In this document: positions 21 through 37,546 of the stretch, in pieces
Layout of the letters: each line of letters begins with the position of its first letter
Numbering within the stretch: the stretch's first letter is position 1
IMG/VR virus record: IMGVR_UViG_3300029305_003884
Location: 64,001-128,000 of that record
DNA from: a virus
Taxonomy: Duplodnaviria > Caudoviricetes
Strand: one strand, 5' to 3'
Length of the DNA: 64,000 nt
The notes under the pieces: model-generated
Seen by the model: only the letters and a program-made list of their open reading frames with translations
Told to the model about the DNA's origin: nothing
The model's database searches: none
Position numbers and translations under genes: made by a program

Positions 21-431
21 ATGGAAACCATCAAGCGGTTCCCTATGATTTGTTACGACAAAGTCGAAAGCAACATAGAAGGAAAGACCGCTGCCGAAAT
101 CATGAACGAGGCAAAGACCATGAACTACGACGGGGAATGGATGGTATTTCGTAGCATGGGTGTGGTGATTGGACTTGCCTGTGCGACCGTGGAAGACAAG
201 ACTACACGCAACCTGTACCTGTATGACTTCGAGGTTGCGACTGATGCACAAGGAAACGGATTCTCAAACACGATGCTGGACTACGTGTACAAGTACGCAC
301 GACAGCACGATTGCCAGTACATAACCCTGATGGCATTCGATGACAACGCTTTTGAATACTGGAAGCATCAGGGATTCAGGGTATCCCCAAAATCAAATAA
401 CAACATCAGACTATTGTTCAAGAAACTCTAA
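21..431 (+). CDS. GNAT-family N-acetyltransferase
   Basis: Acetyl-CoA motif A (VATDAQGNGF), followed by ITL...AFEYWKHQGF; size typical of a GNAT. Confidence 0.8.
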   Translation: METIKRFPMICYDKVESNIEGKTAAEIMNEAKTMNYDGEWMVFRSMGVVIGLACATVEDKTTRNLYLYDFEVATDAQGNGFSNTMLDYVYKYARQHDCQYITLMAFDDNAFEYWKHQGFRVSPKSNNNIRLLFKKL

Positions 432-468
432 AACGAAAGGGACTCCCAGCGTCGACACTGAGAGTCCC
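430..468 (-). terminator. Rho-independent terminator closing the candidate ncRNA
   Basis: On the minus strand: 13-bp stem GGGACUCUCAGUG/CGCUGGGAGUCCC with G-U pairs, UCGA loop, then UUUCGUUUU. Confidence 0.8.
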
Positions 469-686
469 CATGCCATACATCCCATGGTGTTGGGTAACGG
501 GATGGCGGCCAAGTCCTGTGGCGAAATGGCTTGCCTCCGTGCTACGGGTCACGGTCCCCGTCCGGCCATGTTTAACGAGCTGTTCCGAACTCAGCCTTTT
601 CTGAGAATTCCTTACCGTTATAAGGAAAAGCATCAGATTCCTTTGCTCGGCGGCCTTCCAGGTACCAGCCTGAAAAACCTTCCATC
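430..686 (-). ncRNA. Candidate structured non-coding RNA (~255 nt), family unknown
   Basis: Lies between a near-consensus sigma70 promoter (691-719) and a terminator (430-468). Contains several stems with strand-specific G-U pairs and no convincing ORF. Confidence 0.6.
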
Positions 687-690
687 ACAT

Positions 691-719
691 ATTATAGAAA
701 ATTTAAGTGGCTTCGTCAA
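691..719 (-). promoter_or_regulatory. Sigma70-type promoter TTGACG-N17-TATAAT
   Basis: -35 at 714-719, -10 at 691-696, exact 17-nt spacer. Confidence 0.75.
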
Positions 720-994
720 GACTTATGCCGAATTTTTCTGGATGACTGGTCGTTATCGTGAAGTATGCGGTGTGCCCACCATCTCCCGCACGAGGCATCT
801 TCACATCTGTAGTGGCCTCTGGGTCGATTTTCTGGACGAGAGCCGAGGTTATCACCTGTAAATTCCGTTCGGTATTCGCCATCTCCTCATCTCGGCCAAT
901 GGGGGTTCCGACATATTCATCCATCTTGTCATGAATATGCCTGAGCATCATTCGTACATGAATTAGGTTTAGGGCAGACTGTTCTTTTTTTCAT
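703..994 (-). pseudogene. Small hypothetical gene apparently frameshifted in an A7 run (intact ORF part 703..951)
   Basis: ATG at 994 overlaps the upstream stop (TAATG) and follows an AGGAAGG RBS. Removing one A from the run at 985-991 joins it in frame to ORF 703..951. Confidence 0.5.
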
Positions 995-1416
995 TATGTA
1001 CCTTCCTGTTGTCTCTTTTCCTGCCATATAGCCATGGCTTCTAAAATCGTGATTGGCTCCAGCTCCCAACCTCTACTCCTGTTTAATTCCTTGCACGCAT
1101 CCTTTGCATTACTCTCGCACAGCCACTTGTACGCATACCTCGGGTCATCGACAAAATCCCCATATCGCTCGTCATTGTATTCACCGAAGAACTTTCCTTG
1201 TTTGAAATCAACAAGCACAAGGCTACGGTCGCTTATCGAATCGTCAAGTTCGATGGTTGTAGTGGTCGTGCGCTTGGCATAGTATTTCAACGCTACGAAC
1301 GCCGCTATCAGGAATACGATTAGAAGCAGTCCTGGAAGAAACATCATCCAGGTCTGCACTGTGTACATCTCGTATGCGTTATACAGGGGTTCCATCTCGG
1401 CAGCTACGATGTTCAT
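994..1416 (-). CDS. Hypothetical membrane protein
   Basis: One hydrophobic helix (WMMFLPGLLLIVFLIAAFVAL); ATGA overlap with the upstream gene. Confidence 0.65.
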   Translation of the reverse strand: MNIVAAEMEPLYNAYEMYTVQTWMMFLPGLLLIVFLIAAFVALKYYAKRTTTTTIELDDSISDRSLVLVDFKQGKFFGEYNDERYGDFVDDPRYAYKWLCESNAKDACKELNRSRGWELEPITILEAMAIWQEKRQQEGT

Positions 1417-1721
1417 ACCGTCCCCGGTTTAAGCACAGGAAACATTCGTCTTAGGAGAGGCAATTCCACTGGCTGCGGAGTATAATCTTTTTCTTCGTCA
1501 GGCAAATAGTAGTCTCCACGATATAGTTTTTGGTAGAACTCGTAGAGGTATTCTTCGGTCTTTGTAAGAAGCACGGTGACATTCCAGACGAAATGAGTCG
1601 GACCGTCCATGTTGAACTCCCACTCACCCGCTTCATTCAATTCCTTCGTGTATCTTCCATAAGATACAGGGACGGACTTAATCATGTCGATGATTTCACG
1701 CTTGCTAAGATTGACGTTCAT
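1413..1721 (-). CDS. Hypothetical protein
   Basis: AAGGAGA RBS; part of a tightly packed minus-strand operon. Confidence 0.65.
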   Translation of the reverse strand: MNVNLSKREIIDMIKSVPVSYGRYTKELNEAGEWEFNMDGPTHFVWNVTVLLTKTEEYLYEFYQKLYRGDYYLPDEEKDYTPQPVELPLLRRMFPVLKPGTV

Positions 1722-1751
1722 TTTTTTCTCCTTTGAAATTTGTATACTCGA

Positions 1752-37300: not shown

Positions 37301-37546
37301 CTTGGCGTTGGGCTTGTTCGGGTCGACCAGTGTATCCGTGCGGATTTTTGGCATGATGGAGTCGACGACCTGTTCGACGCTGATTGTCGCCTGGTCCTTG
37401 ACCTTGTTTTTGACTAGCGCTTCAACAATGTCCCTTATGTTCTTTTCAGTGTACAACTCATGCAGGAAGCCGTTGTTGTTGGCCTGTCCTAGTACGTGCC
37501 GAATATAGAAAATTAAAGCGTATTCCTTTTGAAGAGTCGTAAACAT
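34379..37546 (-). CDS. Large hypothetical helical late protein (1055 aa)
   Basis: Late box TATAAACTA at 37569-37577 (minus); GAGGA RBS. Confidence 0.7.
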   Translation of the reverse strand: MFTTLQKEYALIFYIRHVLGQANNNGFLHELYTEKNIRDIVEALVKNKVKDQATISVEQVVDSIMPKIRTDTLVDPNKPNAKFNVLPFSPVSLMELYMGKTIDNALLNMQQRIFVDDITDAKDGLAAYFMSCFTRSDMVSDDFIKLATLDKHPSAQEFINVLSSRYPRAEIIKDTKQLSMYASEMVKNNFTNQDLNVVLASIRSDYHNILNDVTLLNAIRKAAELKEADDDTSSFDDLRDRCEKKVRDMIKSTADVGNLLKTAGIYRFAGTMKYIRGSKGEDGSAPVNTIEVSVRKQDRTDSNGIDVYTQFVTTLNKLLAIENLGPVESGTYRNLGTVIMSEAQYRAIFPEYFVTFGIIKDKLKTETEMGKATMKSGDEAGSVIDNYTGEEKFEQEYDDSFDSTTLTVEKTKKLMFAKMLATLNGHPEKVPDQIEPKNNPNSVVYDLNRILVRELFNSPYETIQGLVGYLTLGELPPELQDKASEMEKLREKFLNSAQSVNQEMVERDAHVMAFATILSQLSKLAQMDPDSRTSQNRSANINTHHPITLKSGGKTYSLNNLPTVVNLMAAKAMEGKIIASITLTDPNPLTSALNFLEQSGLLMESDGMYTLETDNAAIKNILDGMEWLQLPSDHYHNMMPDALRNCSYIYKHNGWTHMSPAEMKVNHFTKIENKSKAKTSFEHIGKFVSMIEDLQGSIKPYVFQLRHLNEIIERIRQDYGIDTIPPAEAPTVDDTTMSVDKKALEMLGMDESMESVDRLAQGYFLNKIIERYENAAKTCCSKIKEALRTNKMLNDQTRKALISKFNRNGSKTKLINTIFDGVKKTNLGIMADDSFKKDIQDSFTLTEHIIMLYNKVRTDVMGKDPSIASSFPVRGYVNSQEIEGMTKGQSPSGKLYNEGGLGCQNDFLLNAYLIDILFETVYLLTVNFNLAGQSTYTVQEVLDMDDIKKMQKYINDNIQIAFEGNLGYQQLVNAIIPRLRILFNISMLNMVVIVMSTNPQITKVTGRQYRTITGYTNNMTSKKVLSEIEDKQNSQVTKRRKADWRNEFIPMDDED

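What the first reader, a model, noticed from the sequence alone, without database searches (positions are those of the whole stretch)
430..719. Stand-alone ~255-nt structured ncRNA gene with its own promoter and terminator
Seen: a near-perfect sigma70 promoter (TTGACG-N17-TATAAT, 719-691) fires leftwards into a region ending in a 13-bp terminator. The RNA folds densely: GGUUUUUCAGG/CCUGGAAGGCC (11 bp, three G-U pairs valid only on this strand); CGAGC/GCUCG enclosing UUCCUUA/UAAGGAA and CUCAG/CUGAG hairpins; AUGGC/GCCAU enclosing CCGUG/CACGG; and CAUCCC/GGGAUG. Possible long-range pairs are 5' GAUGG/CCAUC and GCCGAG/CUUGGC. I recognise no tRNA, tmRNA, SRP or 6S signature. Inference: an undescribed phage RNA (decoy, ribozyme or scaffold). 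The long-range pairs plus ACAGGA faintly recall the RNase P P1/P4 layout, but the conserved residues are missing.
Basis: partly seen in the sequence, partly recalled or inferred. Interest (0 to 1): 0.8.

Follow-up and report, generated by a model that had tools for sequence, protein, structure and literature searches.

The report
Orphan folded RNA gene, rumen jumbo phages
A clade of giant T4-like phages from ruminant-gut metagenomes carries an optional, stand-alone gene for a roughly 255-base RNA that makes no protein, is better conserved than the protein genes beside it, matches no catalogued RNA family, and has no known function.

Summary
The stretch is a real non-coding RNA gene on the minus strand (about window 685 to 431). 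It has a near-consensus sigma-70 promoter (719-691) and a covarying intrinsic terminator (469-438 plus a U run).

I found it in 21 other metagenomic or viral loci, giving 16 distinct sequences.
- **Conservation:** the RNA is 91-97% identical where the flanking GNAT gene is about 80% and orf82/96 about 77%.
- **Not coding:** the 71-aa frame fails. Variable sites fall 23/15/14 by codon position. Indels of +1, +2, -1 and -2/+2 sit in loops. The most divergent copy has lost the ATG and has stops in every frame.
- **Strand:** base changes keep pairing on the minus-sense RNA (98.5% of cells) but not on the other strand (83.6%).
- **Covariation:** six pairs changed on both sides, against 1.5 in shuffles.
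most hold. CUCAG/CUGAG and AUGGC/GCCAU do not. Two pseudoknots are likely.
- **Folding energy:** without the terminator it is not above chance (z -1.5).
- **Other searches:** Rfam gives nothing at E<=10, and no bacterial genome holds the RNA. A complete 419-kb sister phage lacks it, so it is accessory.

Function is unknown. My best guess is an early-expressed folded RNA that binds a protein or ligand. This scan already noted the same family on other DNA, a 422-kb phage. I could obtain no transcript data.

The parts
714..719 (-). -35 box TTGACG. It lies inside the last codons (L-D-E) of the upstream orf82/96.
   Evidence: It is conserved as TTGACG, TTGACA or TTGATA in all homologues with a fixed 17-nt spacing.
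691..696 (-). -10 box TATAAT
   Evidence: It is invariant in every homologue that reaches this far, while the spacer upstream varies.
431..685 (-). The RNA gene, about 255 nt. The 5' end near A685 is inferred from the -10 box, and the 3' end from the U run at 437-430.
   Evidence: Found in 21 loci as 16 distinct sequences, 83-99% identical to the window and more conserved than the flanking genes. The ends are inferred, not mapped.
652..679 (-). Hairpin H1, GGUUUUUCAGG / CCUGGAAGGCC, with a 6-nt loop
   Evidence: Three one-sided changes keep pairing through G-U or U-A. Pair 9/32 (alignment A7 columns) is mismatched in 5 of 16 sequences. The loop varies.
600..637 (-). Long irregular hairpin. The lower stem is UCUGA/UCAG-A (helix E). 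The upper stem is UUCCUUAU/GUAAGGAA (helix F) with loop AACG.
   Evidence: Pair 49-88 switches U-A to A-U in 2 sequences. Helix F has 4 pairs with G-U-compatible changes. It is the minimum-energy fold in every variant, and several substitutions lengthen the stem.
645..649 (-). 5' strand (CGAGC) of helix A. It pairs with GCUCG at 576-580 and crosses helix B, giving a candidate pseudoknot.
   Evidence: Invariant, so untested by covariation. The nested alternative CCGAGC/GUUCGG is broken twice in L026.
576..580 (-). 3' strand (GCUCG) of helix A
   Evidence: All 16 sequences pair and none vary.
560..590 (-). Helix B, GUUCGG (590-585) with CCGGAC (565-560)
   Evidence: In L026, G-C becomes A-U at one pair, and two further one-sided changes are compatible. 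All cells pair.
537..559 (-). H-type pseudoknot. Helix D is GGG (559-557) with CCC (548-546). Helix C is CCGUG (554-550) with CACGG (541-537).
   Evidence: Helix D changes G-C to C-G and G-C to U-G in L026, and G-C to G-U in six other sequences, with all cells paired. Helix C is invariant.
466..542 (-). Nearly invariant 3' core of 77 nt, with only 6 variable sites among 16 sequences. It contains the 8-bp hairpin CAUCCCGU (504-497) / AUGGGAUG (485-478).
   Evidence: The pairing inside the core cannot be tested because almost nothing varies.
430..469 (-). Intrinsic terminator. The stem-loop is at 469-438 and the tail UUCGUUUU at 437-430. It abuts the stop codon of the convergent GNAT gene (429-431).
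   Evidence: Two pairs have compensatory changes and three have compatible one-sided changes. There is a U run only on the minus strand.

Best explanation
This is a genuine, stand-alone, accessory gene for a non-coding RNA of about 255 nt in a clade of T4-like jumbo phages from ruminant-gut metagenomes.

**Shown or strongly supported**
- The promoter and terminator are conserved.
- Selection acts on the nucleotide sequence and on minus-strand base pairs, not on any reading frame.

**Inferred: how it is made**
- Host sigma-70 RNA polymerase starts at the near-consensus promoter (719-691), so transcription probably begins at infection without phage factors.
- Transcription stops at the covarying intrinsic terminator (469-438).

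**Inferred: what the product is**
- The 5' half is a more variable set of hairpins: H1 and a long irregular hairpin.
- Two probable pseudoknots follow: helix A crossing helix B, and helix D crossing helix C.
- The 3' core of about 77 nt is almost invariant.

**Inferred: how it acts**
- It acts in trans as a folded molecule.
- The invariant, compact core most likely binds a protein or small ligand. That would make it a decoy, sponge or scaffold used in host takeover or counter-defence.
- It is unlikely to work by base-pairing with a target.
For: **Gene signals**
- The promoter and terminator are present.
- The -10 box is invariant, the -35 box and the 17-nt spacing are conserved, and the spacer varies.
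- The terminator stem covaries.

**Conservation**
- There are 21 homologous loci with 16 distinct sequences.
- The RNA is 91-97% identical where GNAT is about 80%, orf82/96 about 77% and orf140 about 84%.

**Not coding**
- Variable sites fall 23/15/14 by codon position.
- Indels of +1, +2, -1 and -2/+2 lie in loops.
- L026 has lost the ATG and has stops in all frames.
- A phmmer search against 1.8 billion representatives found only the same locus plus repeat noise.

**RNA-level constraint**
- 98.5% of cells pair.
- Six pairs changed on both sides, against 1.5 in shuffles (0 of 500 reached it) and 0-3 in slid controls.
- The same pairs are only 83.6% complementary on the opposite strand.

**Accessory status and setting**
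- Six GNAT-syntenic relatives lack the RNA at this site.
- A covariance model of the core finds nothing in a complete 419-kb sister genome.
- The genome is T4-like, with a portal, a Dda-like helicase, gp46-like SbcC and baseplate wedge proteins.

**Against an antisense role within the phage**
- No complementarity above chance was found to the phage's own 178 kb.
Against: - No transcript evidence exists.
- Folding energy without the terminator is not above chance (z -1.5).
- Most compensatory changes outside the terminator come from one divergent sequence (L026). I chose helices B and D after seeing its changes, so the shuffle statistics flatter the model.
- A scan of all possible helices also turned up a few short alternatives with one double change.
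- The core is too invariant for its fold to be tested.
- Nothing identifies a binding partner. The neighbouring orf96 has no recognisable RNA-binding fold.
- The family is narrow (83-99% identity), so some of the conservation could reflect recent spread.
Confidence: 0.7

Rival explanations
1. It is a small protein gene. The product would be the 71-aa ORF at 418-633, or the 85-98-aa form that starts at the AUG beside the transcription start, read as a leaderless mRNA.
For: An open frame covers the 3' two-thirds in 15 of 16 sequences. AGGA lies 5 nt before the ATG at 633. Three independent indels (-1, -1, +2) each bring the 5'-terminal AUG into that frame. Gene callers did call such ORFs.
Against: Variable sites fall 23/15/14 by codon position. 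Amino-acid identity is 81% at about 91% nucleotide identity, which is the neutral expectation. The N-terminal part is read in different frames in different lineages. L024 (+1) and L026 (-2/+2, ATG lost, stops in every frame) have no equivalent ORF. There is no Pfam or PHROG hit and no relatives beyond the locus. The ORF would run through the terminator hairpin into the GNAT gene.
Confidence: 0.03
2. It is a base-pairing regulatory RNA whose conserved core is an extended seed against a host (or phage) transcript.
For: It has a strong promoter and terminator, as classic trans-acting sRNAs do. Its long invariant stretches could be target-complementary.
Against: No complementarity above chance was found to the phage's own 178 kb. 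The one 22-nt identity to a bacterial gene is in the same sense, not antisense, and is near chance expectation. The size (255 nt), the pseudoknots and 77 invariant nt are atypical of seed-type sRNAs. The host is unknown, so host targets could not be screened.
Confidence: 0.1
3. It is a sponge for a GGA-binding global regulator of the CsrA/RsmA type, sequestering it early in infection.
For: There are 12 GGA triplets against 6.9 +/- 1.9 in dinucleotide shuffles (6 of 1000 reach 12). Three copies are invariant in the core, including CAGGACU and AUGGGAUGU. The latter resembles the published CsrA SELEX consensus ending GGAUGU, recalled from my own knowledge and not tested here.
Against: Most GGA copies lie in predicted stems, with unpaired probability of 0.5 or less for nearly all. 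Several are lost in homologues. Known CsrA sponges are repetitive hairpin arrays, not pseudoknotted folds with a long invariant core. There was no Rfam CsrB/RsmZ-type hit. The host, and whether it has CsrA, is unknown.
Confidence: 0.06
4. It is a catalytic RNA: a self-cleaving or other ribozyme, or a degenerate RNase P-like or group I-like core.
For: The architecture is compact and multi-pseudoknotted with an invariant core, as in ribozymes. T4-like phages are known hosts of group I introns (my own knowledge).
Against: No Rfam ribozyme, RNase P or intron model matches, even at E<=10, in the window or in five homologous loci. It is not inserted in a gene. No conserved catalytic motif was recognised.
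Confidence: 0.08
5. It has no function of its own. It would be a decaying gene remnant, a long 3' UTR or terminator region of the upstream operon, or a DNA-level site that looks conserved because it spread recently.
For: The family is narrow. There is no terminator between orf82/96 and the RNA, so read-through transcripts would carry it as a 3' UTR. Folding energy alone is unremarkable.
Against: It is clearly more conserved than the protein genes on both sides in the same genomes. That is the opposite of a decaying remnant, and hitch-hiking does not explain it. It has its own conserved promoter. The strand asymmetry of G-U pairs and the placement of indels in loops point to RNA-level selection.
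Confidence: 0.05

Closest known systems
Large orphan 'ornate' RNAs of phages and gut or rumen bacteria (ROOL, GOLLD; also raiA, OLE)
   Same: It is a stand-alone, strongly conserved, intricately folded non-coding RNA of unknown function. It is found in phage and rumen-associated sequence, is not tied to a downstream gene, and probably contains pseudoknots.
   Different: It is much smaller (about 255 nt against roughly 580-800 nt for ROOL and GOLLD). There is no sequence or structure match to any of these Rfam models at E<=10. Its distribution is very narrow, a single phage clade. No multimer evidence exists.
T4 small stable RNAs (species 1 and 2, rnaC/rnaD) and other phage-encoded sRNAs
   Same: They are non-coding RNAs of T4-like phages with unknown function, made from their own transcription signals (my own knowledge of T4).
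   Different: The T4 RNAs lie in the tRNA cluster and are processed from it. This RNA is a solo unit between convergent genes in a window with no tRNA. No sequence similarity was tested, because no reference sequence was on hand.
Protein-sequestering RNAs (6S RNA, CsrB/RsmZ)
   Same: The proposed mode of action is the same: an abundant folded RNA that titrates a host protein. The RNA also shows GGA enrichment.
   Different: It lacks the rod-with-bubble shape of 6S and the repeated GGA-loop hairpins of CsrB. Neither Rfam model matches. The partner is unknown.
ARRPOF RNA (Rfam RF02933), named as closest known by an earlier agent of this scan
   Same: It is an orphan structured RNA on a mobile replicon.
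   Different: cmscan at E<=10 over the element, and at E<=1 over five homologous loci, gave no ARRPOF match. I see no basis for a relationship.

Membership tests
Any Rfam 15 family (4227 models, including RNase P, SRP, 6S, tmRNA, pRNA, ROOL, GOLLD, raiA, ARRPOF, riboswitches, ribozymes and group I/II introns) | Covariance-model score at or near the family's gathering threshold | tested here: not met
   There were no matches at gathering score in the 64-kb window. At E<=10 over 350-800 the only hits were miRNA-like matches to the terminator hairpin and two chance hits on the other strand. Nothing fell on the RNA in five homologous loci at E<=1.
Bacterial RNase P RNA | P4 helix with the conserved CR-I (GAGGAAAGUCC-like) and CR-V (ACAGAA-CCCGGCUUA-like) sequences in the right order, plus a P1 closing helix | tested here: not met
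   There was no RNase P model hit at E<=10. By eye, GAGCAAAGG and ACAGGACUUGGC are present, but the would-be P4 5' strand precedes the GAGCAAAG rather than following it. The GCCGAG/CUUGGC pairing is broken in L015 and competes with helix A.
tRNA / tmRNA | Cloverleaf or tRNA-like domain with an acceptor stem, plus a tag reading frame for tmRNA | tested here: not met
   ARAGORN found no tRNA or tmRNA in the window.
Protein-coding gene (small ORF) | A reading frame kept open and in register across homologues, with an excess of third-position (synonymous) change | tested here: not met
   Variable sites fall 23/15/14 by codon position. Frameshifting indels are present. L026 has no ORF.
Stand-alone bacterial-type ncRNA gene | Own promoter and intrinsic terminator, conserved in homologues | tested here: met
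   The -10 box is invariant, the -35 box and spacing are conserved, and the terminator stem covaries and has a U run on this strand only.
Stand-alone bacterial-type ncRNA gene | Secondary structure maintained by compensatory or compatible substitutions on the transcribed strand | tested here: met
   98.5% of cells pair and 6 pairs changed on both sides, against 1.5 in shuffles. The opposite strand pairs at 83.6%. Caveat: part of the model was chosen after seeing the data, and most events outside the terminator come from one sequence.
Stand-alone bacterial-type ncRNA gene | A discrete transcript of the predicted size and strand | not testable with these tools
CsrB/RsmZ-type CsrA sponge | Many GGA motifs displayed in the loops of short hairpins | tested here: inconclusive
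   GGA is enriched, 12 against 6.9 +/- 1.9. Most copies lie in predicted stems and only about 2-3 conserved copies could sit in loops.

The most novel reading that the evidence does not exclude
This is the founding member of a new class of compact, multi-pseudoknotted phage RNA. It would work on its own fold, as a ribozyme, a ligand sensor or an RNA-only decoy for a host defence or translation factor. Rumen jumbo phages would deploy it in the first minutes of infection as an optional host-range or counter-defence module, together with the two small proteins (orf82/96 and the membrane protein orf140) that always accompany it.
Probability: 0.25. Interest if true: 0.8.

Novelty: categorically new. 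Interest (0 to 1): 0.62.

Why it matters
Phage-encoded non-coding RNAs other than tRNAs are few and mostly unexplained. Large folded RNAs that match no family have repeatedly turned out to be new ribozymes, riboswitches or RNA-only assemblies.

This RNA is small enough (about 255 nt) for structure probing and cryo-EM. It has clean transcription signals and an almost invariant 77-nt core that invites a pull-down.

It also offers natural plus and minus genomes of about 420 kb for comparison, one with the RNA and one without. Finding its partner could reveal how giant phages of uncultured rumen bacteria take over or disarm their hosts.

Tried and rejected
**Searches that found nothing**
- Rfam at gathering score and at E<=10 gave nothing.
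- blastn against 50,697 GenBank phage records gave no match.
- My first DNA pattern, the UUCCUUA hairpin as a 20-mer, found nothing in IMG/VR. Four later patterns from invariant stretches found only the same two viral contigs.
- The peptide-pattern scan of 185,579 species genomes found no relative.
- The core covariance model found nothing in two relatives' records, two Lachnospiraceae MAGs or 151 Lachnospiraceae genomes. One hit at E=0.09 is chance.
- The search for related loci with orf140 found nothing.
- phmmer of the 71-aa translation against 1.8 billion representatives found only the known locus and repeat-rich junk.

**Matches set aside as chance**
- A 20-mer scan hit an ECF-transporter S-component gene in two Lachnospiraceae MAGs, identical over 22 nt. 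It is in the same sense, has no flanking similarity, and about one hit was expected by chance.

**Structural alternatives rejected or left open**
- Helix K (columns 56-60 with 88-92) has two compensatory pairs in the L016 group. It is broken in L018 and L026, cannot coexist sterically with helix E, and is never the minimum-energy fold, so I rejected it.
- The competing pairing AAGGAA (43-48) with UUCCUU is noted and unresolved.
- The terminal helix 1-8 with 250-257 from RNAalifold is broken in L026 and L035, so it is not adopted.

**Other attempts**
- orf96 gave an AlphaFold model with pLDDT 74 and no PDB fold match at E<=0.001, so there is no hint of an RNA-binding partner.
- Two literature searches found no description. 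The IMG/VR candidate-structured-RNA catalogue (PMC10690425) has no supplements held, so I could not check whether an unnamed model there covers this RNA.

Full report
**Setting.** The window is bases 64,001-128,000 of a 178-kb IMG/VR viral contig estimated to be 42% complete. It encodes a portal, a Dda-like helicase, an SbcC/gp46-like nuclease, a DnaB-like helicase and baseplate wedge proteins, so it is a T4-like jumbo phage.

The finding lies between two convergent genes. One is a GNAT acetyltransferase on the plus strand (21-431; Pfam PF00583). The other is a small minus-strand gene that ends at 703 (orf82/96). Alignment of seven orthologues at 62-93% amino-acid identity shows that orf82/96 is a real protein.

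**The observation.** The promoter scan reports TTGACG-N17-TATAAT at 719-691 on the minus strand, an 11/12 match. It also reports a 14-pair G+C-rich hairpin at 469-438 followed by UUCGUUUU. That gives an RNA of about 255 nt, from about 685 to about 431.

A single promoter of this quality is not rare. I count 7 in the 178-kb contig, against 3.1 in shuffles.

The whole RNA folds at -100.3 kcal/mol with z = -3.4, against z = -2.65 for the opposite strand. Without the terminator hairpin, z is only about -1.5 on either strand. So 'folds densely' is not evidence in itself.

ARAGORN finds no tRNA or tmRNA. Rfam 15 gives nothing at gathering score in the whole window. At E<=10 over 350-800 it gives only chance hits.

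**Homologues.** Six phage contigs that share the GNAT gene (78-83% amino-acid identity) lack the element. In them the convergent gene abuts the GNAT stop codon, and window 432-1751 is replaced by other DNA. One of these is a complete 419-kb genome with terminal repeats. Neither BLAST nor a covariance model of the RNA core finds anything in it.

I reached real homologues by searching the protein database with translations of the element on both strands and fetching the contigs behind the hits. I also used DNA patterns from invariant stretches and a peptide-pattern scan of metagenome contigs.

This gave 21 loci with 16 distinct RNA sequences, 83-99% identical to the window. One lies in a 422-kb phage contig. 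All have the same neighbours: orf140, orf82/96, the RNA, then the convergent GNAT. No bacterial or archaeal genome among 185,579 species holds the RNA.

**More conserved than its neighbours.** In the same loci, the RNA is 91-97% identical to the window. GNAT is about 80%, orf82/96 about 77% and orf140 about 84%. The last 77 nt before the terminator (window 542-466) have only six variable sites among the 16 sequences. A decaying remnant would show the opposite pattern.

**Not a protein gene.**
- Indels of -1 (twice), +1, +2 and -2/+2 occur among sequences more than 83% identical, and all lie in hairpin loops.
- The N-terminal third is read in different frames in different lineages.
- L024 and L026 have no equivalent ORF. 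L026 has lost the ATG and has stops in all three frames.
- Amino-acid identity is 81% at about 91% nucleotide identity, which is what neutral change gives.
- phmmer against 1.8 billion representatives found nothing beyond this locus.

One curiosity: three independent indels each bring the AUG at the predicted 5' end into the long frame. L024 and L026 break that pattern, so I treat it as coincidence.

**Structure.** I counted pairs on the 16-sequence alignment A7.

*Supported helices*
- The terminator has two pairs with compensatory changes and three with compatible changes.
- H1 (window 679-652) has three compatible changes and one position that is often mismatched.
- A long irregular hairpin (637-600) combines two stems. 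UCUGA/UCAG-A has pair 49-88 switching U-A to A-U in two sequences. UUCCUUAU/GUAAGGAA has four pairs with G-U-compatible changes. This hairpin is the minimum-energy fold in every variant, and several substitutions lengthen it.
- Helix B is GUUCGG/CCGGAC (590-585 with 565-560). It has one G-C to A-U switch and two compatible changes.
- Helix D is GGG/CCC (559-557 with 548-546). It changes G-C to C-G and G-C to U-G in L026, and G-C to G-U in six other sequences.

*Pseudoknots*
- Helix D crosses the invariant CCGUG/CACGG hairpin, which gives an H-type pseudoknot.
- Helix B crosses the invariant CGAGC/GCUCG helix A. The nested alternative to helix A is broken in L026.

*Overall counts*
- 98.5% of cells pair.
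- Six pairs have changes on both sides, against 1.5 in shuffles (0 of 500 reached it) and 0-3 in slid controls.
- On the opposite strand the same pairs would be only 83.6% complementary (on the 10-sequence alignment A5).

*Caveats*
- I picked helices B and D after seeing L026's substitutions.
- Most double changes outside the terminator come from that one sequence.
- A scan of all possible helices also finds a few short alternatives with one double change.

- CUCAG/CUGAG fails in 9 of 16 sequences.
- AUGGC/GCCAU is unsupported.
- CAUCCC/GGGAUG extends to 8 bp but is invariant, so it cannot be tested.

*Unresolved*
- The core contains several repeated AUGG and GCCA words, so many pairings are possible and none can be tested.
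- The loop UAACGG of the upper hairpin is complementary to both CCGUUA and UCGUUA further downstream. Either could form a further tertiary contact.

**Function.** Nothing identifies it.
- The promoter is host-type, so the RNA is probably made at the start of infection.
- The element is accessory and sits in a variable island beside GNAT genes. That is the usual home of host-takeover and counter-defence genes.
- It always travels with orf82/96 and the membrane protein orf140. Both are absent from the RNA-less complete genome, whereas orf102 has a copy elsewhere in that genome.
- orf96 gives a moderate AlphaFold model (pLDDT 74) with no PDB fold match.
- There is no complementarity above chance to the phage's own genome.
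- GGA triplets are enriched, 12 against 6.9 +/- 1.9 (6 of 1000 shuffles). Most lie in stems, so a CsrA-type sponge is only a weak idea.

The compact pseudoknotted fold and the long invariant core fit a molecule that works through its shape. I therefore favour an early folded RNA that binds a protein or ligand, acting as a decoy, sponge or scaffold. A ribozyme and a base-pairing regulator are the main rivals.

**Relation to earlier notes of this scan.** Two follow-up reports on another genome, a 422-kb phage, described the same family as a new non-coding RNA of about 255 nt. One of them claimed four pseudoknots and named ARRPOF as the closest relative.

My independent work agrees that it is a new non-coding RNA family in rumen jumbo phages. 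I can support two pseudoknots, not four. I find no ARRPOF match.

**Novelty.** There is no Rfam family, no literature description found and no homologue outside this phage clade. A 2023 catalogue of candidate structured RNAs from IMG/VR (PMC10690425) could contain an unnamed model for it. I could not check this.

Noticed in passing
window 478-499; L028:2735-2756, L027:3661-3682: A 22-nt stretch of the invariant core (CCATGGGATGTATGGCATGGGG) is identical, in the same sense, to part of an ECF-transporter S-component gene (PF12822) in two Lachnospiraceae MAGs. There is no flanking similarity, and about one 20-mer hit was expected by chance in 596 Gb. It is probably coincidence, but it is the only pointer to a possible host group.
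   Followed up: partly
window 432-1751: This is a variable cassette. The RNA, orf82/96 (703-951/990) and the membrane protein orf140 (994-1416) always occur together. They are absent from a complete 419-kb sister phage, where other genes fill the site. orf102 (1413-1721) is 93-96% conserved and has a 61%-identical copy about 100 kb away in that sister genome.
   Followed up: partly
window 703-725: The RNA's -35 box and spacer lie inside the last codons (I-S-L-D-E-A-T-stop) of orf82/96. The invariant L-D-x-A at the protein's C-terminus may therefore reflect promoter constraint as much as protein function.
   Followed up: no
window 608-643 (alignment A7 columns 43-78): AAGGAA occurs twice (columns 43-48 and 73-78), and both copies can pair with UUCCUU (59-64). 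In L017/L018 a G46-to-A change matches C61-to-U. This hints at two mutually exclusive hairpins, that is, a possible conformational switch.
   Followed up: partly
L015:964-2455, L016:3255-4746, L031:1-1447: In the RNA-bearing phages the element sits beside a cluster of two GNAT acetyltransferase genes separated by a 154-aa gene of unknown function.
   Followed up: no
window 695-709; G002:227832-227846, G004:217955-217969, window 37502-37517: The promoter-proximal word TATAGAAAATTTAAG (plus strand) recurs exactly in two RNA-less relatives. A 2-mismatch copy occurs elsewhere in this genome. It may be a shared early-promoter flavour (A/T-rich spacer before the -10 box).
   Followed up: no
L026:1092-1212, L036:1765-1847: There are sub-threshold Rfam PYLIS_3 matches (22-24 bits against a gathering score of 38) inside the orf96 coding region of two homologous loci. 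They are most likely chance.
   Followed up: no
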